Source: Candidatus Omnitrophota bacterium
GTDB taxonomy: Bacteria > Omnitrophota > Omnitrophia > Omnitrophales > Aquincolibacteriaceae
Length of the DNA: 64,000 nucleotides
Assembly: GCA_023247055.1 (NCBI GenBank)
Contig: JAHFHF010000007.1
Location: 2,186 to 66,185 of the forward strand
Direction of reading: 5' to 3'
In this document: in pieces, positions 24,301-51,627 of the stretch
Layout: the number at the start of each line of letters is the position of its first letter
Numbering within the stretch: the first letter of the stretch is position 1
Notes under the pieces: generated by a model
Told to the model about the DNA's origin: nothing
What the model saw: the letters and a program-made list of their open reading frames with translations, nothing else
Databases searched by the model: none
Made by a program: the position numbers and the translations under genes

Positions 24301-27300
24301 TTCACGGCTCACGCCAAAAAGCGTTTCAAAGTGCCCCCATTGGACGATTTTTTGCAGCATCTGGGGCCAATAGATTTGGGCCATGCGAAAAATACGGTCG
24401 GCATAGGCCTGATTGACTTCATGCCCTGCGTGAAACGTGTCTTGCATATAACGGAGGCGCGCGACCACGGAACCGCCAAAGTAAGAAAGGATCACTCTCC
24501 GGCGCTGGGCAGGCGTCGTCAGATCATCCGCAATCCTGCGCACAAACCGGCTGACAAAATAATCATGATACGCATCGCTTTCATGCCCAGTGACGTTAAG
24601 CTGCTCGGTCCGCAGCATGCCTCTCCATGCCCCCAGCGAAATATCTCCGTTGGCTTCGGCGCTTAGGCGCCGGTTCGCTTGCTGCTGTGCATAAGCATCC
24701 CGGTAAGTGTCATGCTGCTGAATTTCGGCCATGGGCATCAGGTCGATCAAGACCTGCCAAATCGTCTTTGGCGGCTGTTTACTCCCCCTCAGCCGCGGCA
24801 GCCACTTACGGATCTTTTCGGCCCGCTGCCGGCGCAAACGCCAGCGTTCCACGTATTGGTAAACAATATCCGGGTTCTGGCTTAAAGCTTCACTTAAAAG
24901 CGCGCCCCAAACCACCGATTCATCGACAGCCAAACCCTCCTCCAGTAAAACGCGGCCCGCTTTGACAAAACGCACGTAACGCTGTTTTTCGCGGCCCGCT
25001 TCCAAAAGCACCGCCCGGATCTCCTTCAAAATAGTTTTTTCAAAATGGTCGCCGGCGGAAAGTTTTTCTTCGATAAATTTAAAATCATTTTCAAAGTTCC
25101 GGAGCGCCTGCTTGCGCACCCGCTCCGTAATTCCCAAAATATAATTGTCCAGAATCTGGCGATAGTATTTTTGCTCGTTCTGTTCGGCCATGGTCTGAAA
25201 CCGTTCCAGAAAAAATCGCAAGACTACCCGGACGATGATGACAGACAAAACGAGGTCTATAAGATCCACGCGTACTTTCCAAAATTCAAAAACCGTGAAT
25301 TGTCGAATGACGCTTAAGAAATTATCGAAATTGAGCACATAACGAAAGGCTGCCAAGAAACCGGCAAACATCAGAAACAAAATAGGTATCCCAACCGTGG
25401 ACGCTAAATTCTCGACCGCTTCGGTGCTCATCAGCGTATTGCTTCGAAGCCAGCGGCGCTGCCAAGAGTGTGGCAGGATGGCGTTGGCATAGCCATGTTT
25501 GACAAAGTCCGGCACATGCACGTCGCCGCGCAGGTATTTTTTAATGAGCGTCTCGGCCATGTCCTGGCCCAAGCGCAGCATCCGCTCATGTTCTTTGACC
25601 GTGAATGCGTTTTTTTGCGCCGGCAGATCAAAAGACGGCACTCTCCAGGCTTCGGTCGTTAAATTTTGTTCCAAAATATGCGGCCGGACAATGCCATCGA
25701 TAAAAAAGCGCCGCGAGACCACCGGATCATAAAATTTCATCTGCACCAGCGATCCCTGCGGACCGGTCAAATGCTCCTTAGAATCCACAAAATCACGGCG
25801 GATCTGGCCCCGCAGATTGACCCGGTAATACTTGCGCCATTCCCCGGATTCTTCATAGGCGCGCAGCGTATTGGCAATTTGCCGCATCATGGCGGTTTCA
25901 AACTCCAAGAGTTCTTTTGGCGTTAATTGGGCCACATAATCATCATAACGATCCGCATTGAAATTGAGACGCGATTGTCCGGCTTTCAGAGAAGGGTCCG
26001 GCTTTGCGGTTTTTTGCCGCAGCAGGCGCTGAAACCACGGCGTATTTTTCATCCTAGTTTTATAGGACTGCCGCGCGCCATAGCGCAAGACCAGCGGGCT
26101 GATCGGCACGTCTGTTTCCGCGGCGGCAGGGCTGCGCATTTCAGATCGCGCAGTCGTTTCCGGCACAAACTGACCTTCGGAAACGAAAACGGGGTGCGGA
26201 AAATGGCTCCCGATATAACCGCCGCCCGGAATTGTCTCTGCGGTAATTTCGAGGGTTCCGTCTTTAACTTTGAAAATATTTCTGGTGCCGATGAGCGTTT
26301 CGACTGCCACCCGGCTGTTTTTTGAAAGATCAAAAACTCTTGGTGTTCTGGACACCTGGTCCTGGTAAAACCGGCGCGCGCTGGTAATCGGCTGCAGATA
26401 AATTTCAGAAGGCTTGTCCGGATTTTGAAAAAAAACATCCGGTCCTCCGCCATTCCCCATGATGACGACTCCGCCGTTTTCAAACATGGCCGGCTTAATG
26501 ACGGCCTTGCCGCCCGTGCGTTTGGAATCAAGCCGCCGCGTGCGCCGAAAGACACCGGCGGGGAACGCCGTAATGCCAAGGCCCGGAATCACAGAAGCAG
26601 AGGCCGGCGGCTCTGGCTCTGCTTTGTTCGCGGAGCGGAAATCCGCATGATAAAGCCCTCCGAGCGCATCGATTCCGTCCGGATGGCTGATCTGAAAACG
26701 ACCGTCCGATAGCGCTTCGAAACGTATCTTTTGGAGAATAACCGGCTGGGGCGTCCATAAATCCATAACGGCCAGCGGTGCCCGCAAACCTTCCCATTTT
26801 TCGCCGGCTGTCATATGAAAGAAAAAAATGAAACGCGGATTGCTGGTAAAACGCCTAATCATATAATCCGTGCCTCCATTTTCAATGAAAAGCCCGCTGG
26901 GGAAACGCGCTGTCTCAAAAACCCCGCGCCCGAATATAATTTCTTTTTTATTTCCGGAAATTTGTACTGCTCCGGAAATTTGCACGGCGTCAGCGCCGAA
27001 TTCCGGCACAGGCGCCCGAAAATCACTCCAGTTCCTGCCTTTCACGTGCACCGCCACAGGCTGGAATAAAGCGGCCGCGCGATAATCCACATACCATTCG
27101 CCTTCCAAATTGCCGGGATAGAATTGATTGCCCAGCCGGGCAAGAATTCTGCCGGAGGGCAGGCGGATGACGACCTGGCGTGTCTGGTCACCAGGCGCCA
27201 GCGGCGGCTCTTCGCCTTTAAAAGCGGCGCCATAGTGTGCCAGCATCTTCCGGAGTTTGGCTACGGTGGCTGGGTCAACCTCGGATTCTTGCAGCAAGGT

Positions 27301-30300
27301 GTCGGCGCTTATCTGCGTCAGATCATAAGCGGTCTTTATACGGAGTTTCCTTCTAGCGGCAGAAAAACCCAAACTTATGAGGTGGTATCGCCCGATCAAA
27401 AGATCCATATCCAAATTCCGCAGAAACACCTCGACGGCCGATTCATTCTTCAGCGCCAAACGCAGTTCGGCCAATTTGTTTCGAACTTCCTCGAGACTTA
27501 TAAGGCCAAACCCACGAATGGTAAGCAGCTCATCGGCAGATTTTTGTGTCAGTTCACCCAGCGTCGTAATGCCAAAATGGTGCGTCATTTTTCGTGCGCG
27601 GACACTCAAATCTAGCGTTGAAACAGGCTGATCAAGCAGTTCTGAATTTTTAAAATTCCGGCCTTGATGTTGCGCTTCGACGATTTCGACGCGCAAGCCC
27701 AGATGGTTTTCATTCCCGCTTACAGCGTGCGGGATTGACAGGCTGGGCAGCCATTTTTGTGAGTTAAAAAAACTGTCCAGTAATTGGATTTTTTCTGGAG
27801 ACGACAGACTGAAGTTTGTATTTTCGCGCGAAAGAATGGCGGCGAGACGCTCGGCCTCGGGCGGTATCTGCTCCAAATCAAAACCGGCGGCCAGCCACTC
27901 GGGCCAGGACTGCCGGCTGTCTGCCGGCCTGTCGCGAATCATGGCCTGGATGCGGCTTTCTCTGAGCATATGACCGGCGAGTTTGCGCGCATGGATGGCT
28001 TGGCCAGCCATCAGATGTTTAAAATAACCCGGCGTAAGCGCCGCCAGCATTAGAAACGCCAGCTTGCGGGCTAACGCCGAATTAAATTCCTTAGACAGAG
28101 TTTCAAGCAAAACGGCCTGCGCTTCTTTGCGCAAATTTTCATAGGGCAGGATTTTTTCACGCATCTGGCGGCTCAAAAGCGGCAAGGCACCGGCTTCCTC
28201 TTCGAGAGTCAGCGGGTTTTCATCTTCCTGCAGAAGGCCCAGGCGTTTGAGAAAATTCTTAATCATGATGAAGTCCCAATCCTCATACTCGCCCTCAACA
28301 TCCTGAACCCCATCGGCTGCATATTGCGGATTCAGATACCACTGGCCTTGCAAATTACCGGCGTTATAGCCCGTGCCGAGCCGCCCCAGCACTTGCCTGT
28401 GATGGCTGTATTTTGATACGACGCTAACTTGGGCGGGTTGAAACCCTTGATAAATCCAGGGTTCCGGCCGGCCTGCTTTCCTGCTGCCGCCGTCAATCCG
28501 TACTTCAAAAGACTCGAAATCAAACCGTGCTTTTTGAGTCTTTTTCCACTCCTTGATAAAATCGTGCAAAAGTGCGTCTCGAGATAAAGACGCCTCAATG
28601 TACCTGCCAAGACCATACATGGCCCATCCCGCAGCCTGGCGCGTCTGGCTCAGTTGATCCCGCGCAGCCCGGTCCGTCAACTGACGGCTGTCGGTCATCC
28701 GCACCAAACCGTCGATTTGTTTTTCGCGCGCCAACTCAGCCATGAGTGTTTTCCGAGTTATTTTCGAGGGGTCATCCACAAATTGAGCGGCAAGCCGCGG
28801 TGTAACGGCAAAATAAATCCTCTGAATAACTTCCCAAGTATCCGCAAACTTCGAATCCTGCAAGATTTTCAAAAGCGGCGCGTGCACGCGCTCCCAGGCA
28901 GACTCGGCCCAAAATTCTTGATCCATGGCCCGGTCGAAAAAAGTATCCCTGACAAAATCCCCAAACATAGGTTGATCCATAAAAACGGGCGTATCGGGCA
29001 TTTGACTCAAATGCGAATGCGTCACCAGCCCAACCCCGCCGGTGCCCGTCACTTCAAAACGGTAATCCGGCCCTAAAATCTGGCTGACTTTAAAAAGATC
29101 AACGCGCAATTTTTCCAATTGGGCGCGTGTCTTGGCATCTTCGGGTTCTTCGCCGGCCGGCCGGACCTCCGGTTGATTGCCGGCCGCTTCAAAGGCGCTG
29201 TCCCAATGCCATTGGCCGATCAAATTATCCGGCCGGTACCCGGTACCCAGCACAGCCACCTTCACCTCGGCGCCCTTGGGCTTTTTGGCCATAATCGCAA
29301 CTTCAAGCGAATTTGACTTTTCTATCGGCGTAATCTGAATTCTCAAAGACGGATCAAAGCTATTGAGTTGGTCCCGGGCATTGCCGTCGCCCACAAAATT
29401 ATGAAAATCCAAAATCAGCCCGTCTTTGAGATTGGAACTGTCATCAAACGCCTGAAGGACTCCATGCTTGGCCAAAAGCCCGGCAATACGGGAAGTCTTG
29501 TAATCCCACATCCAGCGTTTCTCAGCTAAATCGTTTCGCTTATGGGCCCAGGCTTTGCCATCCATCCCTGCGTTGGCAGTCAAGTTTGTTTTAATTTCTT
29601 TTTCAAGGGCTTGATAATAACTTTCTTCGACAAGCCGCGCCCGTACATCGCGGCCGGCCTTCAAAGACGGTTCTGACTCGGCAAACAGAATGCGAAAAAT
29701 GTTTTCCATCCAGTCTTTTTTATCTGGATGTTTATCTTTCGAAAGTTTTCCATCCAGACCAAATAATTCGTGGATTCCTAAAACCACTTTTTGAATCGCC
29801 GCCTCCCTCGACGCTGATTGTTCCGAAGTCATAGCCACGGCTTCGTCAAATTGTGTTAGGACGGCATCGCGCAACTTTTCGGCATCTTCTTCAGGCGTAA
29901 GGCTGTTGGGCCCAGGAGGAAGACCAAAATCGTTTCTAAGAAAAATGACCAGGAGTTCTTGGATAAATGCTTCATATTTCTTGTTCTGTGATTTATCTTG
30001 CGCCGCCGGACTTGGAATAAATTGCAGACTCAGTTTGGCCGCGGCTTTCAAAAGTTGCGGCGCCTGGCCGGTTTCGGGCACAGCCGGCGGTAATTTGTCG
30101 GAGCTGCGGTGCTTGAGGAGGAAATTTAAAAAATGCGGGTAAGCCATAAAAAAGCCGTCATTGCGAGACACCTGCCGCTTTTTGACGGGTGTCGAAGCAA
30201 TCTCGGACGCTGATATGACTTCGTTCCCTGCGCCTCCTCGCAATGACAAAATAGCCGCGGCAGAAGGCAGCGCGGCGCTTTCGATAAAAAGATAAAACAG

Positions 30301-33300
30301 ATTGGTTTGGACCGGGTCCAAAGCTTCCAGGGCGCTTAAAATTTCAGGGGCCTCTAATTTTTCACGAAAATAACGCAGCCCGGCCAGCAAAGCGGCGGCG
30401 GGCTCCTTGGGATAAAGCGCATCCGCATGCAGTGAAACCAGAAGCTGCAGCAGAGCCTGTTGTTTTGGCGTGGAACGGGCTTTTTTCAGCAAATACGGAT
30501 CAACCCAAAAGGTTTTTCCTTTCAGGCTCACCCCCGATAAAAGAGGCTCGGGGCTGATGCGGAATTGAAAGCCGGCGACCGCGAATTTTTCAAGCAGGCT
30601 GCCATCCGTGATCAGCTTGGCGGATAGCGGACGGCCCAGGTTTTCGTTCTGCTCCGGCTCATTTTGAGACGGCCTCGTTTTAGGACGGCCCCGGTGTTTG
30701 GCTTGGGCAGGTTCAGCAGCTTCCTGGCCGAGATATTCGCGAAATTGGCGCAAAACAGCTTCGACATCGCGCTCGCGATGAGTCTGGAAATATTCGAGTT
30801 TCTGGATTAAAGGCGTAAGATATTTGTCTTCCGGCTGCCGGGTTAAAATTTCGCGGGCTTTTTGATGCAGGCTCTGAATCAGTTCATCCGAAGGTTCTTG
30901 GCGCAATAGCGCCAAAAATTCTCTCTTGAGACGGAGCAAAGCCTGATCCGCGGGTGTTTTTTGCTTTGGCCGCAAGACTCTGTCGGCCAACGGAATTTTC
31001 GTCTCCGACCAGGTCTTCAGAACATCGGAAACACGAACTCTCGGGCCGGTCATTTCCGCAGCCGGTGCCACAGGTTTCCGGCGCGCAAGCTGGTTCGTGG
31101 CCCGGAAATCCCGCTGGATTTCAAGCCCGTCGGGATCAAGTTTTTTCATATCTTGCAGCGAAAAGACCTTATGCTTTTTCTTGCGCGCCAAAAGAAAAGT
31201 CGCGTTTTCTACCATCTGCCGGGTCAAAGCATCCAGTTCGGGAATTTCCCCTAGCGAAACTTTGTCATTTAAAATTTCGAAATCAAATGTTTCACTGAGA
31301 AATTTCTTGGCCTTGTCCGTAAAAACGCCGTTATGGTCCCAAAGCAAAAGCAAGCCGCCTTCCGTCACCGATTGGGCAGCCTGAACCAAGGCCCAGTTTT
31401 TCATGCTCACGCCATGCTTGTTTCGGATTCTTCCGGGCGGTTTGGCAATTTCAGAGGACGAAACAAAGTCAAAATGATTTTGCGGCAGCGCATCCTGATA
31501 CAAATCGTAATCACTTTGGCCGGCTGGCTGTTGCGGAAAATGCTGCTCAAGCTGCCAGGCCCGGCCCAAACCGCGGGCCTGAGCGGAACTGTCGACTTCA
31601 AAGTAGCTGAAATTGCGGACGGGAATCTTTTGGCGTGCGAAAAGCGCTTCCATCTGCGCCAAAACACGCAGATCCACCGAAGGGCCGGAAGCTAAAAAGG
31701 CCCAGCGCGGCGCCGGCGCGCCCTGCGCAGTCCGGTTTAAATCGATCGTCCCCTTTTCGTGCAAATGTAAAAGATGGCCATAAAGCGCTTCGGTCGCGGG
31801 TGTTGCTGCCACATCGTTAATCGCGGAAGCGTAAAGCGCCATGCCCTGGTCCCACAAAGCCTGGGCTTGGTCATTTTTGCCTTCATACAACCGGCTGTAA
31901 ACTTGCGCAAGCCAATGACGCACTTCCTGAGCAATGGTTTTACGTTTGGCGCGGCGCTTTTCGCGATCCTCAAGCTGTTTGATATTGCGGCGCATGTGGT
32001 CCATGCGGAGTTTGCCGCGGATAATCTGATCAAACAGCGATTCTTTGTGTTTTAAAATATCTAAAATGTCATCATCGACCGTATCGGCCACGACAAACGC
32101 ATACACCCGCACTTCTTTATCCTGGCCAATGCGGTAGACGCGGCCGATGGCCTGGTCCAGCTTGGCATTGGTGTAGGGCAGGTCCGTCAGTAAAACATGG
32201 TTGGCCTTGAGCGTATGCCCTTCGCCGCTCAGATCAATCGTGCTGAGAAAAACTTTTTGATCGAGGTCCTTGTTAAACCGGGCAATCACTCCTTCGCGAA
32301 GTTTGGGATCTTTATGCGTCTTACTGTCCAGATAAGCGACGGCCTCCGCCCCCATTTCTTTGGCCAGCATGTCTTTCAGGCGCTGAACCACCTTGCGGTA
32401 ACGGCTAAAAATCACAGCCCTTTCTCCGGAAGCGGCAATGGCCTTTATTTTTTCAATTACCGCGCGGTACTTGGCCGGCGAATCATGCCGCACCGGTTCC
32501 GAAGCGCGCAACAGTTCCAGCACAGGCCCACGCAAAAGCTCAAGACTTTCATAATATTCACGTTCATCGCGGCCTGATTTGGATACTAACAAGGACTCAT
32601 CCATTGAGGCCCTGACCCGCTCAAGCAACTCTTCATGGGTCCGGTCCGCGTCAGGCATCAACGGTTTGAGGAGACGCAGATCGATCAACGTTTTGACTTT
32701 TCGCAGCAGTGCTTCAAACTTTTTAGTCTTGGCGGTTCGGAGATCTTTTTCAGAGACCGCCAAAAGCTCCAGATCAATCAGAATTTGTTTCTGCTTTTCA
32801 AAATGCGCAAACGTCTCCATCTGCCTTTGATTGCCGAGCGCGTATTGATGATCTTCTTCTTCCAAAACAGCCTTCTGGGCTGGGTCGATTGTCACAGGAA
32901 TTATTTCAAGCGGGTGTTTTTTGGGAAGGTATCCCATGACTTGCGTAATGGTGCGGCGCAGAAAATATTTCTGATTGAGTTCAATATTGAGCTGCGCCAG
33001 ATGCAGCGGATCTTCGGTCACTTCCGCGCTAAAGCTGTCAAAATCCGGAAAGCGGGCGGGGTCTGCGGCATTCAACGCCACAAACAAATCGCCCACGCCA
33101 TTGACCACCGTCGTGCCCGAAAGATAAATCGCCGCCGCCTTATCTTTTTTAAGCCGGATAAACTGCTTGGATCTTTGGGTCTCGGGATTGCGCAGCCAGT
33201 GGATTTCATCGCCGATGATAAAATCCGGCGCCCAGGTATTGAGGGCATCCACCAAGGCTCCGCCGGTCTTGGCCGCGCCCAGGGCCTGGTAGCTCATGAG

Positions 33301-36300
33301 AATAAAACGCACACCTTCGTTTTGGACCTGTTTTAATTTTGCGAGGCGGCCGCTGCTGGGTCCGTCAATCACAGCCACTTTTTGATCTTGCCCGAGCCAC
33401 TTCGTAATTTCATTCTGCCAATTGGCCAAAAGATGATTCGGCGCCATGATCAAAACTTGTTTGGCGCCCGCATCCTGCGCTGCGATCAGCGCCTGAATCG
33501 TTTTACCCACGCCCATATCGTCGGCCAGAATGACACGGCCCGCATTTTCATGCCTGGCGAAATAAACTCCGGCGATCTGATGCAGCATCAATTCCGACGG
33601 ACTGATCGGGCCGCCGTTTCCGTTGCCATTGGTGTAATGCACATACTGCTGATAATTTTTCTGCTGCAGCGCCGCATAATAATTTTTAATCTGCTGATAA
33701 ATGGCCTGTAACTCTGCCGCCGCACCGGGGGGAGCCGTCTTAAACCAGGCTGCCGCTATTTGAAGGGCCTTTTGTGCTGTGGTTTTTTCAGGATCTTTGG
33801 GCAGCTTGAGCGCCGCCTCCAGCAGGGCATTGTAAATGCGCGTGATGATTTGGCGTTTGATCACTTCCCGGATCTCCTGCTGCACTTCGCTTGAAAATGA
33901 AGCTGCGGCAGGAGTATGCCAATATTGGCTAAGGGCCTTTTGCATTTTTTCGCCCATCAGTGTTTCGTGGCTAAAGGGCTGGATGTGATTATTGCTTTCG
34001 TAATCGAGAAACTTTTCGCTGATTAGGGCCAGCAGCGATTTCACCGGAAAATCCGGGTGCCGTTTCGCAAAAAGATAAAAGAGCGCGGCCTGGCCCTGAT
34101 CGGTATTGAAAAGATGCATCCAGGAATCCATGTCCATCTCTTCGGCGATTTGATTAAAAGACTGCCGCTGGCCGGCATTGATATGTTTCTCTAAATCGAG
34201 GCGCTGAGCGGCTTCTTCCTGGCCTTTGTAGGCAATTTTGTTTTTACTGAGTAAAAATTCGAGCGTCGAAACCGCAGAACCCTGCTTCTGACGCAGTTCG
34301 TCGTAATAACGATAAAGCGTATCAAGCCCGTAAGGCTTGGCCGCTTGGCTTAGCCGCAAGAGCGGCGTTTGCCTGAAAATCCGCTCCGCCTCGGCGCGGT
34401 CCAGCCGCATCCACTGATCGAGTGTCAATCCGGCGGATTGAAGTAAAAGCTGTACCAAAAAGCGGATCTGTGAAGGACTGCGCTTAGCCCAATCCACTTT
34501 TTGCGGATCCGTCAGCCAGGGGTCTGCGGCCCCTGCGGCCTCTTGGTGGCGCATCTCAGAGCGCGCAAATTTCGGAGTTAGAAGTTTGAAGTTGGAGGTT
34601 GGAAGATTCGAGCGGTCGGAAAATTCGGGATGAAATCTATTTTCTTTTTTACTTCCAACTTCCAACGTCCAACTTCCAACTTTTTGGCGCATCTCAGAGC
34701 GCTGCAGGGGCCGGGCCCCTTTTGCTTTTCTCTTGGGGGCGGGCTTGAAAATGATTTCTAATTCCCATCGCTGCAGATCAGGCACACCGGATAAAACGGC
34801 CAGCCGTTCCTGCGCACTCGCCCGGGCGTATTCTTCCTTGAGTAAAAATTCAGCCAGCTTGAGCGCATTCTCACGCGAAATGGTTGGCCGCACTTTATGG
34901 GTCTTGGTTGTCTTCCCTGTAAACCACCAGAAGACTGTCCAGACATTCACGCCGACAGCATCCACGATGGGTCTATAAGAAACAGGCGATTTGCCTCGGC
35001 TGGGATATTTGGCTGCCGCCACACGAGCGGCATTTTGCAGAAAATGTTTCTTAAACTGACGCACCTGTTTGCGCCGCGCCTGGGTCCCCGCACGATCATC
35101 CAGATGACCGCGAATAAACCATTTCCCGGGAACTTTGATTAAAGTCTGACGCTGTGTTTCCGAAAGAACGACTTCGTCATTGCGAGGCTCCCGCTGCTTT
35201 TTGGCGGGCGGCGAAGCAATCTTCAGCCCGGAATTTGCCGCAGTCTTTGCGGCGCCTTGTAAGGCATTTCCCCTTTGGGGCGGCGCGCGGTCTTTGCTAG
35301 CCGTTTTAGGCGATGCCGTTTTTTTCTTTTTCCCCGCCTCATAAGGAAAAAACACTTCAAGCTGTGCCGGCGTTAAATCAGGATTGCCGGCCATCCGCGC
35401 CAAAAGCTTATGACTTGAATCGTGCGGATAAGTACTCTTCAGTAAAAATTCAGAGGCCAACAAGGCATTTTCCCTGGAAATGATCCGTCGCTTGATCCAG
35501 TGCGTGATCATGCCCGCATGCCCGCGCCCTCGCGTTTTTACCAGATGCGGCGAGACATAGTCTGCCAGATTTTGGAGTATGACTTTATTTGTCCTTTTTT
35601 GCAGCAAAAGCATTGTTTCCAAATTATCAAAAAAGCTATCTCGAAGTTTGGCCGTGTCCGAAAATCCTCGGACTTGCCGCAATGTTTTCCACACTTCAAG
35701 CCCTTCAAGCGCCGGCGCTACAGAGCGCATCTCAGACCTAGCCCGAGCATCATCCGAAGCTGGCCTTCGGCGTATTTCGCTTCGCATGGGGTTCACGATT
35801 CGGGCAGTATCGAACACTTTATTTTTTAAATTAAAATTAAATAAATATTGATTTAAAATAAATACTCGGATATTATGTTTTATCCAAATAAAAATACGGG
35901 CGATCGCATGAAGATAGGGACTCTTCGAGATGAAAGACAAGACACGCCGGTATGAAACCGGTAAAATGCTGATTGATTTATCAAAATATTTTGCGACGGC
36001 AATTGCCGCCGGTACTATTGCCAGCGGCCGATTTGATTGGGGAGTCGTCATTACCGGGCTAGTGCTGGCATTTCTAAGCTGGGCTATCGGATTTGTAACC
36101 ATCCCGGAGGATAAGGAGAGCAAATGAGTAATTTTGAAGTCTTTGCCATTGGCTTCGTTGTTTTCGTCTCGATGGTCGGATTGATTGTGGCGATTAATCA
36201 CCGCTTGAGTGAGCGGCAGCGTCCCCATCCGCCCCACGGCACTTAAGCTGGGGATGCGACGAATTTCTGAGCGCTGCGCTTGAAGAATTTGGCCGTAACG

Positions 36301-39300
36301 CATCAGAGCCGCCCGCATCACAGGCTCAGCCGTTGTACGGATAAGCTCGAGATACTCCAGACGCGCTTGAAAAAGCCGCTCCAAAATTTCAATTTTGCTT
36401 TCCTCAGACTGCCGGCCAAATGAACTCCAAAGATTATCCCAATCCCGAAGCCGGTGCTCCACTTGAGCGGGGGCTTGATGAATAACCTCACTGCCGCCCT
36501 CGCCCCATAAAATCATTTCAGGGCGCGAGAGCTCCGAATGTAAAATGATTTCAAAAAACTCTTTTGACAGCACCTCCAATTTCGCAGACAGAAACCGTGC
36601 TTGGCCATCCCGCCGGATATCCTCGAGAAAAAGACCAGCACCTTCAATTTCATGATCCAAACCGCCAAGAAACCACGCCGCGCCCCGCAGGCTTGCCTGC
36701 TGTAAAGTTTCGTCGTCGTTTTCTTTAAAAAAAACATCGGCTCCGAGCGCCCAAAGCCGGCCCCCGCTATTGGACGTATTCAGTTCTGAAAGTACTGTCA
36801 TCGGATCTTGAACCAATTCCGGAAACATCCCGCTCCAAGGCGCGGGCAGATCGAACAGTTGTGAAAATTTTTGATAAAAATTCAACGCCTCCGGCCGCGT
36901 ATGAGGCCAAAATCTTTCCGCCCAGATTTTAGCCCAGCTGCTGAAACCATCCAGATACACGCCGGCCAAATTAACCGGCTCTGAACCCGGCAGCCATTCT
37001 TGTTTCATGCCCGGCCGCGGATCTCGAATAAAAACGCCCGTGGTCTTTAACGCCTCGACTTCATTCGTTTGGCGATAGCGGGCATATACTTCTATCGCCA
37101 ACGCGTTGAAAGGATAAGTCATGAAATCAGAAACGTATTGACCATAGGCCGCATTCAATCGTTCTGCCTGATGATCCCAAACTTCAGAACCTGTGCGATT
37201 GATAAATTCCAAAGCAGAATCAGAAAAAAGCGAGAACTGCCGGAAGTCCTTGGCGTGCGTCAAATCAAGCTGTCTCATTTTGGCCGTCGCTGCTGCGATC
37301 GGCGGTGTATGGAATAAAATTCCAACAAACCAACTTAAAATCTCGTTTATAATGGTCGTTATAGCGTTGTTTATTCTCGGTATTATCTTAGCCGACAAAC
37401 TAGACAACAAAGGACGGTAACTCCATGTTTGGTCTTGTAACCATCTTTCTCCTATTTTCCACGGTCGCTCTATGGATTGCATTGGAGAGGTATTTTTTAA
37501 ATCGCCGAAAGCATTAAGCCTGCTCGGCTGAATTTGCCTCAATTCTGACCGAGCCTCTCCCCCAATCTGATCCCATGTTTCAGTCACAGTAATCAAACGC
37601 ATAAAAAAATCTTCGAGTGCTTGGGGAGTGCGTCCAAAACTTGCCGGCGTGAAAATAAGCTTTTTCGGAGCCGTCGCTTCATGCCAGAGTTGTTGAAGTG
37701 TCATAGCGCTATCATCTGATTTTTTTTCTGCGGCTTGGATGAGATAACTGGCAAGCGGATACTGGGTAAGCAAAAAGTCGTACGCATGGTGAGAATCCCA
37801 CATCCCATCATCCAAATGCGCAATGCGGTTCTTAAATTCTTCAGGTGTCATCTTGTGGCCAAACATTAAAAACGAGTAAAGCCGGATAAACATCTCAAAA
37901 TTCGCAAAAGGCCCATAGTTTTCAGGTTCTGGAATCGCCCGTTCATCAAGCTCCCATTTCAAAGTTTCCATAATACGTTCAGGTGCGGTCTTCTTAGCAA
38001 GTTCCGCATAAAGCATCTGGCTCAAACTCAACGCATGCGCCATTTGTTTTACAAACTTCGGGCTCTGAAAATTCCATGTACGTTCTCCATCTGCAAGTTT
38101 CCACACTGCGGGATTCTGCCCCCGAACCTCCGATCGCCCAACAGCATCCCGATTCTTTGGTTCAACACCCTTGGCTCTTGTCTCAAGCAGCTGTGCTTTG
38201 AGGCTGCCTTGACCAGCCATGGTTCTTAGGCTAGTCTTCGAAAAGGGAGAAATATTCCATGCAAAAAGTTGCCGTAACACTACTACCCAAGCAAGCTGAG
38301 ATTTTGATTGAACAGCTTGTTCAAAATCTGGATTTTGAAGCCAAATACCGTTTGGTCCAGAAACTACAGCGTGAAATGCGCCGCGCCCGCTGGGAACCCC
38401 TGGTTCTGAAAATGCGGCGGCGTTTTGCCTCAAAACCCCTTTCTTCCCGTCAAATCCGGCGGCTCTGTGAACAGGTCCGCCAAGAACGGTTTGAGCGTGC
38501 GGGTCGTCGTTGACACCAACGTTTTTATTGCCGCCCTTCTGCAAGGGAATACTCCCCGAAAAGTCTACGATTTCCCCCCCCCTCACTTCCGAGCGATAAG
38601 ATTCCGCGTTTCCAAGAAGAGATTTGAGTGTTTTGAATTTCCACGGGCCAAGACGCGCCTGATTGATCGTGAGCGTTGCTTCCACATCCAGCCATTCGGG
38701 CGGAATATGCATCAAGAAGCCGGCGTCGTCGCCTTTGAAAAGAACCTGCTGTTTCATTTCAAGCCAGGGAATGTCTTTGAGCGATTGATAATGACTGCGG
38801 ACTTCTTCAGGCAGTTTTGCACCCAGGCCCAGCGAAGGATCAAGCGCCCAGGTTTTCTTTTCGTCTATCGAATCCGATTCGATCAAATGTGTGCTAGGCA
38901 CACGAAAGATCAGAACAATATCATTTTTTTCAGGCCCTCGTTTTTCAACGCTTTCCTGATCCCGGTAAAAAACAGTCCTCCAGGGCAATTGGTAAAGGCC
39001 GTACCAGGCAATCAAATCGATGGTTTTAAGGCCTTTGCTCGAGTCATGTATAACGTGATAGACAAGGCTGTCTCCGGTCTCTGCTGCTTTTTTGTAATTC
39101 GATCCTTCAGCATGGACCTCATAGGCTGTGGTTTTACCACCGCTGCGCACGATCGAAGCCGCGGCCGGAATCGAGCGATATAAATGCAAAGAAGCTTCGG
39201 GAAGCGTGCGTTCCAAGCCGCCGGGCTGCCAATCATGGGTTTTGATGACTCTCAGCTTATCGCCCGTGTTAAATCCATTGGGCAGCTCGTACAGCTCGAG

Positions 39301-42201
39301 CGCATCATCGGCCTGGATCCTCTCAAAAACCCAGTCTCTCACGCTATCGAGAGTCCCGATAAAAGGGCCTTCTCTTTGCAACGACGTCTGCGGATTCAAA
39401 CGTTCCAGCAGAGTTTCGAGCAGGCGGACACGCATCCGCAAATAATCAGCCAGCGCCGGATTGTCCTCTTCAAAAAGATACGCATAATCCGCAAGCTCAT
39501 GCGTTTCTGCGATATAATCATGCACAAACTCGTCTTCATCTTCAGCTACTTCCAAACGCTGCTCGTCGTCTAAAAGAACCCGGTCGAATTTTTGAACGGC
39601 GGGAACTATTTTCCGGATTCTCTGAATCTGCTGTTCGTAGGTCAGCGCTTCCCATTCCTCACCCGTAACGCCGCCTATCTTCAGAAGACGCTCACTTAAT
39701 TTTGCAAACTTGTTTCGATTGTTCAAAACACGTTGAATCATACCCAGCTTATCCGCAAGTTCTCGATCCTGACGCTCGCTTGCGGGCAGCCGGATTAAAT
39801 AAACAGTTCCCATAATCGCCAACCCGCCAAACAAGGCTGACATAAGCCATAAAATGGGTTGACCTGCAATGGCTGCACCGGCCAAACCTGCAGTCATCAC
39901 CCAGGCCAGCACCGTGCCGGCATAAAACTCTCTTATTTTTTTCCGGTGCTCTCTGGCCTTTGCACTTAGTGCTTCTTCACTGGCATTCTGGCCGCGCATC
40001 TCGGATCGAGGCTCCGCCGAGTTCACAGAAGTGCCGGACCTCCGCGTCCGGCGCATCTCAGAACGCAAAGACATGCCCGTCACAACGGCGGCTTCATGCG
40101 CCGCTGCGCTGGATTTGTTGACAGCAGGTTTCCCGATAACGATCGCGTCAAACCCGTTTTCAGGAACGCGGCCGTAAAGACGCGTAGATTCCCAAAAGCT
40201 GCTCCAATAGCGCTCCGGCCTCTTCACTTGTTCACGCGCAATCAGTTCATCCAGCACAGTTCTGTCGTCCAGCCGGGTTAAAGGGCTCATCTCCGGCATG
40301 CGTTTGAACATTTTCTGCAAATCATCGCTCGCCATCGCCAGCACGTGATAGCTGTGATAGGGCTTGAGGATTTGCCGCAGTAAAGCCTGGCCTCTTCCAC
40401 GGATGGGCTCTGCTGTATCCGGAAATCGCGGATAGAACGCCGTGATCCGGATCAGCTTGGCCTCATCATAAACACGCGCGCTGATTTTCCGGTCTTGATT
40501 GAGTTGATGGCCGGACCTATCGAAAACATCCGCCAAAACTTCTGTGTACAGAAATTTATTTTCACTTTCAGACGACCCTGCCGCATAAACCGGAGTTCTT
40601 TGAATGCGGACCGTAAAACCTTCCAGCCCCGGCATGTCCTGCACTGTTTCGATCTGGGGTAAACTGCCTTTCGCCTCCATTCGCATTTCAGACATGGCGA
40701 GGGCCCGCGAACGCGCAGACGGTTCTTTAAGTTTTAGGGCTGCTTCGCGCGCCGAGCGCACAAGCGTCATGCCCGGCGGCAAGGTTTGCATGACTTCACC
40801 GAGAGTCCTGATTTCATGCGCGATTGATAAATCGCCCGCCTGTTGGAGTTCTACGACACTGATGGGGCGCGATAGACGCGGCAGCTTTCCAGCCTCGAAC
40901 GGATTGATGCCGCCGGCCATGATCTGGCGGTAATAGTCTTTGTGTTTCTTCTCAATTCTCGAGATGACCGGCGAAATGACCGCGTAACTGACTCCGGCTT
41001 CATTCAGCATTTCGCGGATACGGCCGGCATGAAAACCGCCGTAGACCAGCACCGCTGTTTTTTCATCCGCAGATTCTAAAAAATCCGCGAGAGCCAGTTT
41101 CACTTGGTCGTCCCGTTTAAGGGCTGTCTCATAAAACTCAAAAGCGCTGCGGATACTTTTTTCCCAGCGCCTAGAAAGTACCACGGTCCGGCGGCCATGG
41201 CGCGCCACAAATTCCGCGAGGGCCTGCATTCGCAGTCCGGCCAGTGTGGTTTTAATGTGCGCGTATTCTTCGGCCGTCATCTCGATCTTGTTCAGGCGCT
41301 TGAGCATCTGCAGGTCGTTGTAGAACTTGAAAAGATTGCGGCTGTCGTCTGTTTTCAAAAAATGAACCGCAAGGTCTTTTTCCAGCTGATCCATTTCTTG
41401 CCACAGGCTGCTTGCATTGTGCTTTTTAACTTCTTCAATCGCCGCGGCCTGTTTACTGTCGAGCGCGCGCAAAACCCCGGCCAACCCCGGGTAGCTGACG
41501 GCAAAAGCCGGCGCGCCCATGACGGGAATGGCTAGACGCGCGGTCTCGCGCGCATAAAACGCAAAGTCGGTACGCTGGTTTTCAAAATCTTGTTTGAGGC
41601 GCAGGAACTGCTGCAGGGGTTTGGGCAAAAGCTGCGGCACAAGGGTCTTGAGTTCTTTTTCGGCGCTGCGAAGTTCAGCGTCAATCATGGCCTGGACGGA
41701 TGCGGCTTGGCGGTACCAGGCCGCGCTTTCAAAATGTTCTCGGATATTGTCGGCGCCGATCAGATGGAAGTCTTTTTGACGGTTGATGTGCGCATATTCG
41801 GCCGCGCCGATTTTCAGCTTATCGAGCAGAAAATACGAAACACGCCGTTTGACTTGGGCATCTTGAATCGTTCCGAAAAGTTTATCGGTAGGCACAGGCC
41901 CTTCATAGCCTTCTTCAAAAACCGTGCGCACGCCGTGGTTTTCCACCAAATGCGTAATGAGAGCGGCAATGTTTTCCTGGGCCTCGAGCGAGTCGTGGGC
42001 ATCCTGGATGAAGAGGACGGTCTTGGCAGAAAGGCCGCGCTGAAAAGTTTCAACGGAGGCTAGGCGGGGCGGAATGGAAAACGGCGTTTCGATTTTAACC
42101 GGTGCTGCGCCCGCAGAGGCAGGCACACTGAGACACACACTTAAAAACAATGCTATAAGTTTAAAGAAAGCACGCAAAAAACGGCTGTTCGTTTTAAACA
42201 C
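18337..42201 (-). CDS. giant multidomain membrane-anchored protein (7954 aa) with an SNF2-family ATPase core and RNAP alpha-CTD-like HhH domains
   Basis: Uninterrupted 23,865-nt ORF. GTG start at 42201..42199 with AAAGGA ten nt upstream. N-terminal signal anchor, at least six internal TM segments, SNF2 motifs (GVGKT, DEIH, RVYRIGQ), the recurring RSEMR pentapeptide, and internal tandem repeats. TAA stop at 18337. Confidence 0.85.
   Translation of the reverse strand: [7954 protein letters not shown]
27240..27640 (-). other. two helix-hairpin-helix segments resembling the RNA polymerase alpha C-terminal domain, within the giant protein
   Basis: [51 protein letters not shown] follows the alpha-CTD pattern (LxLSVRxxNxL ... 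G.L...S..ELL...FG.KSL.E). A second, weaker copy ([34 protein letters not shown]) follows. Confidence 0.5.
30157..30250. repeat. family A palindromic element, copy 3, in-frame inside the giant ORF
   Basis: GTCATTGCGAGACACC...GTCGAAGCAATCTCGGACGC...CCTCGCAATGACAAAA. Translated in the giant frame as [35 protein letters not shown]. Confidence 0.75.
32000..33570 (-). other. SNF2-family helicase/ATPase core (DEXDc plus HELICc) within the giant protein
   Basis: Motif I [11 protein letters not shown] at about 33498..33521. Motif [11 protein letters not shown] at about 33188..33217. Helicase C-terminal motif [17 protein letters not shown] at about 32100..32160. Confidence 0.85.
34549..34702. repeat. 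in-frame inverted-repeat element inside the giant ORF, bounded by 16-nt direct repeats GCGCATCTCAGAGCGC
   Basis: DR at 34549..34564 and 34687..34702. Between them GTTAGAAGTTTGAAGTTGGAGGTTGGAAG ... CTTCCAACTTCCAACGTCCAACTTCCAAC (inverted arms of TTGGAAG 7-mers). One DR plus insert is 138 nt, which is 46 codons. Confidence 0.7.
35848..35876 (+). promoter_or_regulatory. consensus-like sigma70 promoter on the plus strand inside an AT-rich island of the giant ORF
   Basis: TTGATT (35848..35853), 17 nt, TATTAT (35871..35876). Local GC is about 20 percent over about 90 nt, against about 57 percent in the surroundings. Confidence 0.4.
40790..42080 (-). other. N-terminal extracytoplasmic domain of the giant protein, possibly TraB/GumN (TIKI)-like
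   Basis: After the signal anchor: [21 protein letters not shown]...[11 protein letters not shown]...[11 protein letters not shown]. This loosely resembles the GxxH ... E ... VVVGxxH arrangement of the TraB/PrgY/GumN family. Weak, pattern-level only. Confidence 0.25.
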
Positions 42202-45676: not shown

Positions 45677-45682
45677 AAATAG

Positions 45683-45868
45683 CAATGAGCAACGAGTGGC
45701 GAGCAATGAGTCAGTAAGCAGCAAACTCTGAGTATGCATAAAACTGGAAGAGATTCATGCCACAATTTTTACTAGTACCTACTGGAATTATAAAATCACC
45801 GGAACACGTTTCTTTGGTGCGGGCTGGGTTTCTCCCCTCATTACTCATTGCTCATTGCTCGTTGCTGT
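45683..45868. repeat. intergenic cassette flanked by inverted arms of GCAATGA-type tandem 7-mers, upstream of birA
   Basis: AGCAATGAGCAACGAGTGGCGAGCAATGAGTCAGTAAGC ... CATTACTCATTGCTCATTGCTCGTTGCT. The centre contains TTACTA ... TATAAAAT, promoter-like. Confidence 0.7.
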
Positions 45869-49891: not shown

Positions 49892-51535
<1,644 letters not shown>

Positions 51536-51584
51536 TTAGTCGTGAGTCATGAGTCGTGGGTCTTGAGTAAAAAGCAGTAAGTAC

Positions 51585-51627
51585 AAAAAGCCCTGATATC
51601 CTTTGTTGGATGTCAGGGCTTTTTTAT
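51585..51627. terminator. bidirectional rho-independent terminator between groEL2 and the convergent rRNA methyltransferase gene
   Basis: AAAAAGCCCTGATATC - loop CTTTGTTG - GATGTCAGGGCTTTTT gives a 16-bp stem with one mismatch, an A-run before and a T-run after. Confidence 0.7.

What the first reader, a model, noticed from the sequence alone, without database searches (positions are those of the whole stretch)
34549..34702. Inverted-repeat element inserted in-frame in the giant ORF, bounded by 16-nt direct repeats
Between two identical copies of GCGCATCTCAGAGCGC (34549..34564 and 34687..34702) lies a 122-nt segment. Its two arms are tandem TTGGAAG-type 7-mers in inverted orientation (GTTAGAAGTTTGAAGTTGGAGGTTGGAAG ... 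CTTCCAACTTCCAACGTCCAACTTCCAAC). The centre is unique sequence.

One direct repeat plus the insert is 138 nt, exactly 46 codons, so the giant frame is preserved. The encoded peptide is low complexity (KVGSWTLEVGSKKENRFHPEFSDRSNLPTSNFKLLTPKFA).

The arm-centre-arm design matches the intergenic cassettes elsewhere in the window (GTGAGTC, GCACCGG, GCAATGA, GTGATGA arms). Here it sits inside coding sequence with what looks like a target-site duplication. This parallels Rickettsia palindromic elements, which insert into ORFs without breaking them.
Basis: seen in the sequence. Interest (0 to 1): 0.65.

Follow-up and report, generated by a model that had tools for sequence, protein, structure and literature searches.

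The report
In-frame hairpin insertion in giant gene
A 138-base hairpin-forming piece of DNA has been inserted, in frame, into a 7,954-residue gene of an Omnitrophota bacterium exactly at the codons of a conserved linker motif (R-S-E-M-R), duplicating them; the same kind of insertion recurs at the same motif in giant genes from other metagenomes, so this is a new family of Rickettsia-palindromic-element-like DNA that lives inside coding sequence.

Summary
The direct repeat is 18 nt perfect (34547-34564 / 34685-34702). Between the copies lie two 30-nt inverted arms of tandem TTGGAAG-type heptamers around a 46-nt centre. The unit is 138 nt (46 codons) and is stop-free only in the frame of the minus-strand ORF 18337..42201.

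The repeat encodes R-S-E-M-R. This motif occurs 15 times in the giant protein (0.1 expected), with varied codons. Five homologues have one RSExR at this junction and lack the about 46 residues, so the segment is a lineage-specific insertion with duplication of the motif codons.

Heptamer-armed hairpins bracketed by two RSExR codon sets occur in four other metagenome contigs. That gives seven independent cassettes, all multiples of three and all stop-free. One contig carries the same cassette, 100% identical, at three sites with different flanks, which indicates copy-and-paste.

Six intergenic cassettes in the window share the arm-centre-arm design but have no flanking repeats. One carries a 23S-rRNA-IVS-protein gene.

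Verdict: an RPE/MITE-like palindromic element that is site-specific for a linker motif. The integration mechanism is unproven, and no enzyme was found. It is a new variant of a known kind.

The parts
18337..42201 (-). Giant ORF (7954 aa) that hosts the insertion. It has a signal peptide and a conserved Omnitrophota N-terminal domain, HTH-like repeat modules, an SNF2 helicase (aa 2874-3359) and an RNA polymerase alpha CTD-like domain (about aa 4852-4912). It contains 15 [RK]SE[MILVF]R linker motifs.
   Evidence: (called as a 7954-residue product on ENA contig k141_3112298).
34685..34702 (-). Upstream copy (in gene orientation) of the 18-nt direct repeat. It encodes R-S-E-M-R, aa 2501-2505, with codons at 34701..34687.
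34682..34684 (-). Short A-rich adaptor (AAA on the coding strand, continuing into the repeat's ...CCAAAAAG) between the repeat and the 5' arm.
34652..34681 (-). 5' arm in gene orientation: about 4 tandem GTTGGAA-type heptamers (written CTTCCAA on the + strand).
   Evidence: period 7, 4.6 copies, 92% matches.
34606..34651 (-). 46-nt unique, AT-rich centre (the loop). No other copy exists in the window or in any fetched locus.
34576..34605 (-). 3' arm in gene orientation: about 4 degenerate heptamers complementary to the 5' arm (87% over 30 nt).
34565..34575 (-). 3' adaptor. On the coding strand it reads CCGAAATTTGC, ending just before the second motif copy. A CCGAA[AG]N6-7 adaptor at the same position is shared by the cassettes in L004 and L035; L046 has the variant CCAAAG.
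   Evidence: comparison by eye of the printed sequences.
34547..34564 (-). Downstream copy of the 18-nt direct repeat. It encodes R-S-E-M-R, aa 2547-2551, the copy from which homology to all relatives starts.
9666..9817 (.). Intergenic cassette A: (GTGAGTC)n arm, centre, (GACTCAC)n arm. It lies between the GHMP-kinase gene and hisG and has no flanking direct repeat.
12755..12870 (.). Intergenic cassette B with GCACCGG-type arms. It fills the gatB-tsaD spacer, and its arms overlap the gene ends.
14311..14803 (.). Cassette C: GTGAGTC arms flanking a 145-aa gene (14342..14779, minus) for a 23S rRNA intervening-sequence protein (PF05635). It lies between gatA and gatB.
   Evidence: (E = 1e-38).
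45680..45866 (.). Intergenic cassette D with GCAATGA-type arms. The left arm is degenerate.
51533..51795 (.). Intergenic cassette E with GTGAGTC arms, between the convergent groEL and rsmB/F-like genes. The centre contains a canonical terminator hairpin. The right arm supplies the last codons and the stop codon of the methyltransferase gene.
58122..58246 (.). Intergenic cassette F with GTGATGA/GTGATTA arms, between convergent genes. The palindrome extends into both stop codons (GCTAGAAGAAA / TTTCTTTTAGC).

Best explanation
The 138-nt unit (a 120-nt hairpin cassette plus one 18-nt repeat copy) is a lineage-specific insertion of a small, non-autonomous palindromic element. The host is a chromosomal giant gene of an Omnitrophota bacterium.

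The element belongs to a family with this layout: short adaptor, about 4 tandem heptamers, an A-rich loop, about 4 complementary heptamers, and an adaptor containing CCGAA[AG]. Inside genes the family sits at the codons of the inter-module linker motif R-S-E-[MVLI]-R of 'RSExR-modular' giant proteins. Integration leaves the motif codons (15-18 nt, themselves a small GCGC...GCGC quasi-palindrome) on both sides.

Because the bracketing repeat is always in the same frame, the unit stays a multiple of three. It is read through as 35-46 extra low-complexity residues between two copies of the linker motif, at a domain boundary where they do little harm.

What is shown:
- The segment is an insertion relative to homologues.
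- The motif codons are duplicated.
- The arrangement recurs at the same motif in other genes and organisms.
- There is strict selection for frame and for absence of stop codons.
- One related gene carries identical copies at different sites.

What is inferred: how the element integrates. One option is a staggered cut across the 16-18-bp quasi-palindromic target followed by fill-in, which would give a true target-site duplication. The other is template switching or gene conversion primed by the shared motif sequence. I favour element-type site-specific integration, roughly 55:45. Any benefit of the RNA hairpin to the host is also inferred.
For: Insertion relative to homologues:
- Alignment A2 shows one invariant R-S-E-x-R in all five homologues and a gap of about 46 residues opposite window aa 2506-2551. 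P0121-P0124 also share the HTH-like module upstream and the W[LF]T[DN]P..DW module downstream.
- Every homologue's alignment starts at the second RSEMR.

The motif is a peptide-level feature:
- It occurs 15 times in the giant protein against 0.1 in shuffles.
- The 15 copies use varied codons. Only the two that flank the cassette are identical.

Recurrence elsewhere:
- L004: GGGGATC arms, 105-nt unit, repeat CCCGCTCTGAAGTGCG[G/C]GC.
- L035: cassettes at 5214, 8289, 9957 and 10695, plus 7646, inside a 4179-aa ORF.
- L046.
- L057.
- L004 and L057 were found through their heptamer arrays, not through the motif.

Copy-and-paste: the L035 cassettes at 9957 and 10695 are 100% identical over 134 nt with unrelated flanks, and a third copy is 100% identical over 97 nt.

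Translation: 7 of 7 independent cassettes are multiples of 3 and stop-free in the gene frame. The joint chance is about 5e-9.

Same design elsewhere in the same genome: six intergenic cassettes.

Stable hairpin: z = -6.

Host and taxon: the neighbours are housekeeping genes. The closest relatives are labelled Candidatus Omnitrophota or Omnitrophica.
Against: - No empty site at DNA level was found in a close strain. The exact junction searches gave 0 hits.
- The homologues that show the gap are only 26-57% identical.
- This particular cassette is single-copy in all DNA I hold.
- No transposase, integrase or reverse transcriptase is encoded in the 64-kb window.
- The heptamer differs in every cassette type, which simple transposition of a master copy does not explain.
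- The intergenic cassettes have no flanking direct repeats.
- In L057 and in the third L035 copy the two bracketing motifs are only 10/15 identical. That fits old insertions or gene conversion better than a fresh duplication.
- L035 and L046 were retrieved with a pattern that required two motif copies, so they cannot be used to argue site-specificity.
Confidence: 0.72

Rival explanations
1. Homology-driven spread without any element-encoded or dedicated enzyme. A hairpin spacer arose once between two adjacent RSExR motifs; natural doublets with short spacers are common in these proteins. It is then copied to other RSExR sites by template switching or gene conversion that uses the shared 15-18-nt motif-coding sequence as microhomology. 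The 'direct repeat' is then the recombination substrate, not a target-site duplication.
For: - Natural RSExR doublets without heptamer arms exist: giant aa 713/732 and 2140/2155, P0122 and P0126, and L026, L057 and L061 with other small hairpins.
- The third L035 copy has a sharp boundary between a diverged left motif (RSETR) and a 97-nt stretch 100% identical to the other copies. This is the signature of a conversion tract.
- Frame preservation follows automatically from this mechanism.
- No transposase lies nearby.
- The intergenic cassettes lack direct repeats.
Against: - At this junction five homologues have a single motif, so a second motif had to be created here.
- The flanking pair is identical over 18 nt, including 3 nt beyond the motif codons. 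In L035 the repeat includes the site-specific 16th base: A at 5214, G at the other sites. A duplication of the local target predicts exactly this.
- This model explains neither the differing heptamers of cassettes within one gene nor the intergenic cassettes.
Confidence: 0.3
2. The hairpin is kept because it works as an RNA or DNA structural signal at a domain boundary of a 24-kb message. Possible roles are an RNase III-type processing or mRNA-stabilising stem (like REP elements or rRNA intervening sequences), a terminator for antisense transcription, or a translational pause. Mobility would then be secondary.
For: - The structure is conserved while the sequence is not: seven cassette types with different heptamers each form 25-36 pairs.
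- A T-run follows the hairpin only on the antisense (+) strand, for the ORF cassette and for cassettes A and B, which lie in minus-strand transcription units.
- Cassette C brackets a 23S-rRNA-IVS-protein gene. rRNA intervening sequences are excised at such stems; that point rests on established knowledge and was not tested here.
- The intergenic cassettes sit exactly at gene ends.
Against: - Folding energies are about equal on both strands, so no transcript-specific G-U signature is seen.
- Cleavage of the stem would cut the ORF's own message.
- Homologous giant genes manage without a cassette at this junction, and L003 and L005 have none in 61 kb.
- There is no Rfam match.
Confidence: 0.25
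3. Translational bypass element, like T4 gene 60 or the mitochondrial 'byps'. The two identical RSEMR codon sets would act as take-off and landing sites, and the ribosome would hop over the hairpin, so the insert is never translated.
For: Identical codons flank a stable hairpin, which is the formal layout of bypass elements.
Against: All seven independent cassettes are multiples of three and free of stop codons in the gene frame, with a joint chance of about 5e-9. If the insert were skipped there would be no selection for either property. Known bypass gaps carry a stop codon after the take-off codon; that point is from established knowledge.
Confidence: 0.04
4. Local origin without mobility, or an artefact. 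Either the RSEMR linker was tandemly duplicated and heptamer slippage then built the palindrome in place, or the metagenome assembler created the hairpin.
For: - This sequence is single-copy in the data I hold.
- Heptamer arrays are slippage-prone; that point is general knowledge, discussed in PMC4679880.
Against: - The same architecture with a shared 3' adaptor occurs in four other contigs. These come from JGI metagenome records and a Logan assembly, so they are independent of this MEGAHIT-style ENA contig.
- Identical copies occur at three sites in L035.
- Two matching inverted arrays arising independently by slippage seven times is not credible.
- An 18-nt repeat is far below the assembler's k-mer size, as judged from the contig name k141.
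Confidence: 0.04

Closest known systems
Rickettsia palindromic elements (RPEs; Ogata et al. 2000, as summarised in PMC10969869)
   Same: Palindromic DNA of about 100-150 bp, inserted in frame into protein-coding genes and translated as extra peptide. No coding capacity for its own mobility. Also found in intergenic DNA of the same genome.
   Different: - RPE families are defined by conserved sequence and a conserved encoded peptide. Here only the architecture and a short adaptor are conserved, and the heptamer differs in every cassette type.
- RPEs insert into many unrelated metabolic genes. These cassettes sit at one specific linker motif of one protein class and duplicate it.
- The phylum differs (Omnitrophota, not Rickettsia).
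- Arms are built of tandem heptamers.
[quoted passage not shown]
   Same: Small and non-coding, with inverted-repeat ends and flanking direct repeats. Multiple copies are present (three identical copies in L035). They can fuse in frame with host ORFs (PMC10969869).
   Different: - The direct repeat is 15-18 bp and always the same sequence class. To my knowledge typical target-site duplications are 2-10 bp (not checked here).
- No parent insertion sequence with matching ends is known.
- The inverted repeats are internally tandem-repetitive and differ between copies.
- The intergenic relatives show no duplication.
Tandem heptanucleotide repeats of cyanobacteria (STRR) and the TAACTGA repeats of Beggiatoaceae (PMC4679880)
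   Same: Short arrays (2-6 copies) of a 7-nt unit, mostly at gene boundaries, some overlapping ORF ends or lying inside ORFs.
   Different: - Those systems use one heptamer genome-wide, as direct repeats. Only one inverted pair was reported among 170 sets.
- Here each locus has its own heptamer and always a matching inverted array, which forms a long hairpin.
rRNA intervening sequences carrying PF05635 proteins
   Same: Cassette C in this window is a PF05635 gene bracketed by long inverted repeats inside a transcription unit. This is the layout of a 23S rRNA intervening sequence.
   Different: - It lies in an mRNA operon (gatA-gatB), not in rRNA.
- The ORF cassette at 34565-34686 has no gene.
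- RNase III excision was not tested.
Repeat duplication by Cas1-type integrases (CRISPR spacer acquisition; casposon 14-15-bp target duplications)
   Same: A staggered attack on both sides of a short, partly palindromic target gives a long duplication (14 bp or more) that brackets the inserted DNA. This comparison rests on my own knowledge.
   Different: No Cas1 or casposase gene was seen in the window. The inserts are hairpins, not spacers. This is a mechanistic analogy only.

Membership tests
MITE | Small (under about 500 bp) and without coding capacity for a transposase | tested here: met
   The insert is 120-122 nt and holds no ORF other than the host frame.
MITE | Terminal inverted repeats | tested here: met
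   30-nt arms, 87% complementary. They are subterminal, with 3-11-nt adaptors outside them.
MITE | Target-site duplication of fixed short length | tested here: inconclusive
   There is an 18-nt perfect repeat here and 15-19 nt in L004, L035 and L046. However, the two motifs are only 10/15 identical in L057 and in one L035 copy, and the intergenic cassettes have none. The repeat could also be a recombination substrate.
MITE | Many similar copies in one genome | tested here: inconclusive
   This cassette is single-copy in 64 kb and in all fetched loci. L035 has three identical copies of one type. The whole genome was not available.
MITE | A related autonomous insertion sequence with the same ends | not testable with these tools
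   No transposase lies in the window. The rest of the genome could not be reached.
Rickettsia palindromic elements | Palindromic element of about 100-150 bp inserted in frame in ORFs and translated | tested here: met
Rickettsia palindromic elements | Sequence and encoded-peptide similarity to one of the RPE families; Rickettsia host | tested here: not met
   The host is Omnitrophota. The peptides of the seven cassette types share no sequence with one another. No RPE reference sequences were compared directly.
REP / REPIN | Extragenic short palindromes associated with a RAYT transposase | tested here: not met
   The element lies inside a coding sequence. No Y1-transposase domain was found among the window genes.
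Single-heptamer direct-repeat systems (STRR, TAACTGA) | One conserved heptamer used genome-wide as direct repeats | tested here: not met
   At least five different heptamers occur in the window, always as inverted pairs.
Translational bypass elements | Matching take-off and landing codons that flank an untranslatable gap (out of frame or with a stop codon) | tested here: not met
   Matching codons are present. The gap, however, is in frame and stop-free in 7 of 7 cassettes.
Any curated RNA family (Rfam 15) | Score at or above the family's gathering threshold | tested here: not met
   Only sub-threshold matches to generic hairpins: the MIR1507 miRNA-precursor model at 26 bits against a threshold of 73. 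The only hit in the whole window is a tRNA.

The most novel reading that the evidence does not exclude
RSE[MVLI]R may be the processing (cleavage) site of self-processing, secreted Omnitrophota polyproteins. Their conserved N-terminal domain weakly resembles the erythromycin-esterase/ChaN hydrolase fold.

On this reading, the heptamer-armed hairpins are a new class of mobile DNA that homes to the coding sequence of that site and duplicates it. The inserted peptide is then bracketed by two processing sites and removed from the mature products. The element would achieve neutrality at the protein level, a proteolytic counterpart of an intein or intron. It could also shuffle modules between giant genes.
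Probability: 0.12. Interest if true: 0.85.

Novelty: new variant of a known kind. Interest (0 to 1): 0.62.

Why it matters
Palindromic selfish DNA that survives inside coding sequence has so far been documented at scale mainly in Rickettsia. This finding shows the same strategy in an unrelated, uncultured phylum, with two new features.

- Strict association with one conserved linker motif. That motif is duplicated by the insertion.
- Arms built from tandem heptamers whose sequence turns over while the hairpin is kept.

The finding also gives a handle on how Omnitrophota giant genes are built. The RSExR motif marks module boundaries in a family of secreted modular proteins that has no Pfam annotation outside a few known cargo domains (SNF2 helicase, kinase, HEAT repeats), and homology between relatives breaks exactly at it.

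Whether the motif is a cleavage site, and whether the hairpins move modules or merely ride along, can be tested with proteomics and strain-resolved metagenomes. The same strain is present in at least three public datasets.

Tried and rejected
1. A word-indexed protein search with the 751 aa around the insert found nothing. The exhaustive HMMER search was needed to find homologues.

2. Exact 26-nt junction searches for filled or empty alleles gave 0 hits in both GTDB genomes and JGI metagenomes.

With three sequences it returned only the genome already known from P0121. No closer orthologue was obtained.

4. The motif-pair DNA pattern returned mostly unrelated tandem repeats: 57 of 59 loci. It found nothing in viral contigs.

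5. I tried to expose the second contig that carries the same neighbouring genes, to see whether its giant gene has a different length. Both attempts failed.

6. Strand asymmetry of folding, as a test for RNA-level selection, showed no difference.

7. I looked for flanking direct repeats at the six intergenic cassettes and found none longer than 7 nt.

8. Rfam gave nothing.

10. Ideas considered and dropped:
- Integron attC, because the core GTTRRRY does not fit the heptamers.
- CRISPR array, because the repeat and spacer sizes and the coding context do not fit.
- The M/V/L/I position of the motif as an internal start codon, because there is no usable Shine-Dalgarno spacing.
- Intein or intron, because the insert is too small and is translated.
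Full report
**1. The observation**

- GCGCATCTCAGAGCGC occurs at 34549-34564 and 34687-34702.
- The perfect repeat is two bases longer: TGGCGCATCTCAGAGCGC at 34547-34564 and 34685-34702. With two mismatches it extends to 23 nt.
- Between the copies are two 30-nt arms, 34576-34605 and 34652-34681. They are 87% complementary and separated by 46 nt.
- Tandem Repeats Finder reports both arms as period-7 arrays, with 4.3 copies of AGTTGGA and 4.6 copies of ACTTCCA.
- Start-to-start spacing is 138 nt.

The region lies in a minus-strand ORF, 18337..42201, of 7954 aa. In that frame it reads ...ARPLQ-RSEMR-QKVGSWTLEVGSKKENRFHPEFSDRSNLPTSNFKLLTPKFA-RSEMR-HQEAAGAADPWLTDP....

This is not a chance feature.

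- As RNA, the sense strand folds at -58.8 kcal/mol. Shuffles average -35.5 (z = -6.0, 0 of 200 as good).
- It is by far the strongest inverted repeat in the 23.9-kb ORF.
- Only three exact direct repeats of at least 16 nt within 300 nt exist in the 64-kb window. The other two are ordinary tandem arrays.
- The insert is stop-free in only one of six frames, the gene's own. Shuffles of its sequence are stop-free with P = 0.07.

**2. Context**

The window is part of ENA metagenome contig ERZ27280021:k141_3112298 (74 kb). The gene caller there also called the 7954-residue product.

The neighbours are housekeeping genes: ssb, pth, prs, glmU, clpX, hisG, tsaD, gatCAB, alr, coaX, groES/EL, an H+-pyrophosphatase and others. 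This is chromosome, not an obvious mobile island, and no transposase or integrase is present.

The closest relatives of the giant protein and of its N-terminal domain are labelled Candidatus Omnitrophota or Omnitrophica.

Pfam recognises only three domains in the giant protein:
- an SNF2 helicase (aa 2874-3122), with its Helicase_C domain (aa 3248-3359);
- an RNA polymerase alpha CTD-like domain (about aa 4852-4912).

**3. The repeat encodes a conserved linker motif**

R-S-E-M-R is not a one-off.

- [RK]SE[MILVF]R occurs 15 times in the giant protein. Composition-preserving shuffles give 0.1 on average and 3 at most.
- It occurs once in all other reading frames of the window.
- The 15 copies use varied codons, for example CGATCGGAGGTTCGG, AGGTCTGAGATGCGC and CGGTCAGAATTGAGG. 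Only the two that bracket the hairpin are identical. The motif is therefore conserved as a peptide.

An exhaustive HMMER search with the 751 residues around the insert found five significant relatives, plus a sixth marginal hit.

- In all five, the alignment to the downstream module begins at the second RSEMR copy.
- Four of them (P0121 to P0124, 26-36% identical, 959-4552 aa) also share the upstream HTH-like repeat module.
- In the junction alignment, all five have one invariant R-S-E-x-R. It is followed after 4-20 residues by W[LF]T[DN]P..DW. All five show a gap of about 46 residues opposite window aa 2506-2551.
- The closest relative is P0001, from Omnitrophica MAG GCA_018063085.1, 57% identical downstream. 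It too has a single RSEVR there and no heptamer array in its DNA. Its upstream module is unrelated, so homology between the two proteins breaks exactly at the motif.

The segment is not an ancient conserved region. It is an insertion that carries a second copy of the motif.

**4. The same arrangement recurs elsewhere**

*Found through heptamer arrays, not through the motif:*

- **L004**, a Logan contig fetched because it encodes P0122. In the preceding gene, which is another RSExR protein, the repeat CCCGCTCTGAAGTGCG[G/C]GC occurs twice, 105 nt apart. It brackets (GGGGATC)n and its inverted complement. The region reads ...A-RSEVR-AGRESGIGDRGSLKTEVTKPDTRIPSPEVS-RSEVR-A....
- **L057**, whose giant gene has the same N-terminal domain. 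(GTCCACG)n arms lie between RSEAR and RSELR, 108 nt apart.

*Found with a DNA pattern for two motif-coding copies 95-155 nt apart (59 JGI loci, most of them irrelevant tandem repeats):*

- **L035** has a 4179-aa open frame with cassettes at 5214 (AGTACGG arms), 8289 (TCGGAGT arms), and 9957 and 10695 (GGGACTC arms).
- **L046** has one cassette (GACAGTC/CACAGAC-type arms).
- All are bracketed by CGCTCCGAGGTGCGG[G/A], which encodes RSEVR.

Because that pattern demanded two motif copies, L035 and L046 cannot themselves prove site preference. L004, L057 and the window can.

*Copy-and-paste:*

- The L035 cassettes at 9957 and 10695 are 100% identical over 134 nt, while their flanks are unrelated.
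- A third copy at 7646-7742 is 100% identical over 97 nt. It has a diverged left motif (RSETR) and a 3-nt slip at the right end.
- One of the filled sites has a paralogous empty counterpart in the same gene. RSEMR-ANPEEGQPQFVL at aa 2256 corresponds to cassette-RSEVR-ANPEEGQPQPVL at aa 3603.

*Shared features:*

- All seven independent cassette types have unit lengths divisible by three: 105, 108, 111, 111, 114, 117 and 138 nt.
- All are stop-free in the gene frame. Treating them as independent, the joint chance is about 5e-9. The inserts are therefore translated.
- The heptamer differs in every type.
- A short adaptor, CCGAA[AG] followed by 6-7 nt, precedes the second motif copy in the window, in L004 and in the L035 cassettes; L046 has the variant CCAAAG. 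This points to common descent rather than repeated invention.

**5. Relation to the intergenic cassettes**

The window holds six intergenic arm-centre-arm cassettes.

- They fill spacers between genes, and their arms often overlap gene ends.
  - The stop codon of the rsmB/F-like gene lies in an arm of cassette E.
  - The palindrome of cassette F includes both convergent stop codons.
- None has a flanking direct repeat longer than 7 nt.
- Cassette C (14311-14803, GTGAGTC arms) contains a 145-aa gene for a 23S-rRNA-intervening-sequence protein (PF05635, E = 1e-38). The design therefore resembles that of rRNA intervening sequences.
- The gatA-IVSp-gatB locus is 100% identical in two other public assemblies.
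- More distant homologue loci have no such cassettes: L003 (28 kb) and L005 (33 kb).

For the ORF cassette and for cassettes A and B, all of which lie in minus-strand transcription units, the T-run that would make the hairpin an intrinsic terminator is on the antisense strand.

**6. How it most likely works**

*Shown:*
- insertion relative to homologues;
- duplication of the motif codons;
- recurrence at the same motif;
- identical copies at different sites;
- strict frame and stop-codon selection.

*Inferred:* a small non-autonomous palindromic element integrates at the coding sequence of the linker motif, which is itself a GCGC-N8-GCGC quasi-palindrome. Two mechanisms fit the data.

- **A staggered cut across about 16-18 bp, followed by fill-in.** In favour:
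  - The repeat extends 3 nt beyond the motif codons here.
  - It includes the site-specific 16th base in L035.
  - The homologues have a single motif.
- **Template switching or gene conversion through the shared 15-18 nt.** In favour:
  - the conversion-like boundary in the third L035 copy;
  - the non-identical motif pairs in L057;
  - the natural RSExR doublets;
  - the absence of any transposase in the window.

Neither mechanism explains why each cassette type has its own heptamer. Concerted turnover of slippage-prone arrays, with the two arms kept complementary, is my guess only.

Because the bracketing motif is always in the same frame, any copy made through it stays in frame. The extra 35-46 low-complexity residues sit in a linker between modules.

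*Rejected alternatives:*
- Translational bypass, because of the 7-of-7 frame and stop-codon result.
- An assembly artefact, because of the independent assemblies.
- An ancient protein segment, because of the homologue alignment.
- A known RNA family, because Rfam gives nothing.

**7. Comparison with what is known**

- **Rickettsia palindromic elements** are the closest functional parallel: palindromes of about 100-150 bp inserted in frame and translated (PMC10969869, citing Ogata et al. 2000). The present cassettes fail membership on two counts: a different phylum, and no conserved sequence or peptide. They also differ in being tied to one motif.
- **MITEs**: size, inverted ends and copy number (in L035) fit. 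The 15-18-bp duplication of constant sequence, the internally repetitive and variable arms, and the lack of a parent insertion sequence do not fit.
- **TAACTGA and STRR heptamer repeats** use a single heptamer in direct orientation (PMC4679880).

I found no paper that describes the RSExR motif in this context or heptamer-armed hairpins in Omnitrophota.

**8. Verdict**

The thing found is a new variant of a known kind: selfish or structural palindromic DNA living in frame inside genes.

- Confidence in 'lineage-specific insertion of a copy-and-paste palindromic cassette at a conserved linker motif': about 0.7.
- Confidence in any particular integration mechanism: well below that.
- Interest: 0.62.

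The more exciting reading is that RSExR is a proteolytic processing site and the element neutralises itself by duplicating it. It rests only on the modular architecture, on homology breaking at the motif, and on a weak fold match of the N-terminal domain to erythromycin-esterase/ChaN hydrolases. I give it about 0.12.

Noticed in passing
window 40702-42201 (minus), aa 1-500 of the giant protein: A signal peptide is followed by a conserved domain of about 450 aa (YIQDAHDSLEAQENIA ... EEGYEG ... GGAEYAHINR ... GGFH) with no Pfam match. It has 39 homologues, and those that carry a source name are labelled Omnitrophota/Omnitrophica. In the longer homologues read, the domain is followed by RSE[MV]R and then a variable cargo module (apparent methyltransferase, cytidylate kinase PF02224, HEAT repeats). 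The AlphaFold model has pLDDT 86. The best PDB fold matches are erythromycin esterase EreC, BcR135 and ChaN, but only at E = 0.03-0.8. The family's C-termini end in ...A[RWI]SA or ...ARMA. This looks like an undescribed family of modular, possibly self-processing, secreted proteins.
   Followed up: partly
window 14342-14779 (minus), inside cassette 14311-14803: A PF05635 '23S rRNA intervening sequence protein' gene (E = 1e-38, also matching bAvd) sits between gatA and gatB. It is bracketed by (GTGAGTC)n / (GACTCAC)n arms. The locus is 100% identical in assemblies ERZ27276474 and SRR14366783.
   Followed up: partly
window 33652-34548 against P0001 (L002): Homology between the giant protein and its closest relative (57% identity) starts at the RSExR motif. 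The 795 residues upstream in P0001, which include a HATPase_c domain, are unrelated to the window protein. Modules seem to be exchanged at the motif.
   Followed up: partly
L057 2107-2240 (minus), L061 2290-2423 (plus), L026 2609-2724: RSExR doublets whose spacers of 33-39 aa consist of two or three small hairpins without heptamer arrays. The L057 and L061 versions are orthologous and differ in the hairpin stems (for example GGTTCACAAGAACC against GGAATCATTGGATTCC). Spacers between motif pairs may generally be structured.
   Followed up: no
window 8165-8343, next to tRNA-Gln (8092-8164, minus): Three 59-nt tandem units (73% matches) lie directly upstream of the tRNA gene. Each contains a hairpin (GATTTAAAAC...GTTTTAAATC), and the middle unit shows what look like compensatory changes.
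   Followed up: no
window 9389-9568: An 81-nt unit is repeated 2.2 times at 100% identity in the spacer before cassette A.
   Followed up: no
window 9245-9355 and 51640-51720: Two copies of a different palindromic repeat type (TGTCATTGCGAG...CTCGCAACGACA and GTCATTCTGAACG...CTCAGGATGAC). They resemble a repeat I recall from memory (not checked here) as widespread in uncultured bacteria. The second copy lies inside cassette E.
   Followed up: no
window 47651-49309 and 49913-51535: Two GroEL-type (Cpn60) genes lie about 600 nt apart, with groES between them. A SWIB-domain protein lies nearby (L001 13151-13408), which I believe is unusual outside the PVC group.
   Followed up: no
window 51774-51795 and 58111-58254: Cassette arms supply coding sequence or stop codons of neighbouring genes. 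The last codons and the TGA stop of the rsmB/F-like gene lie in an arm of cassette E. The extended palindrome of cassette F contains the stop codons of both convergent genes.
   Followed up: partly
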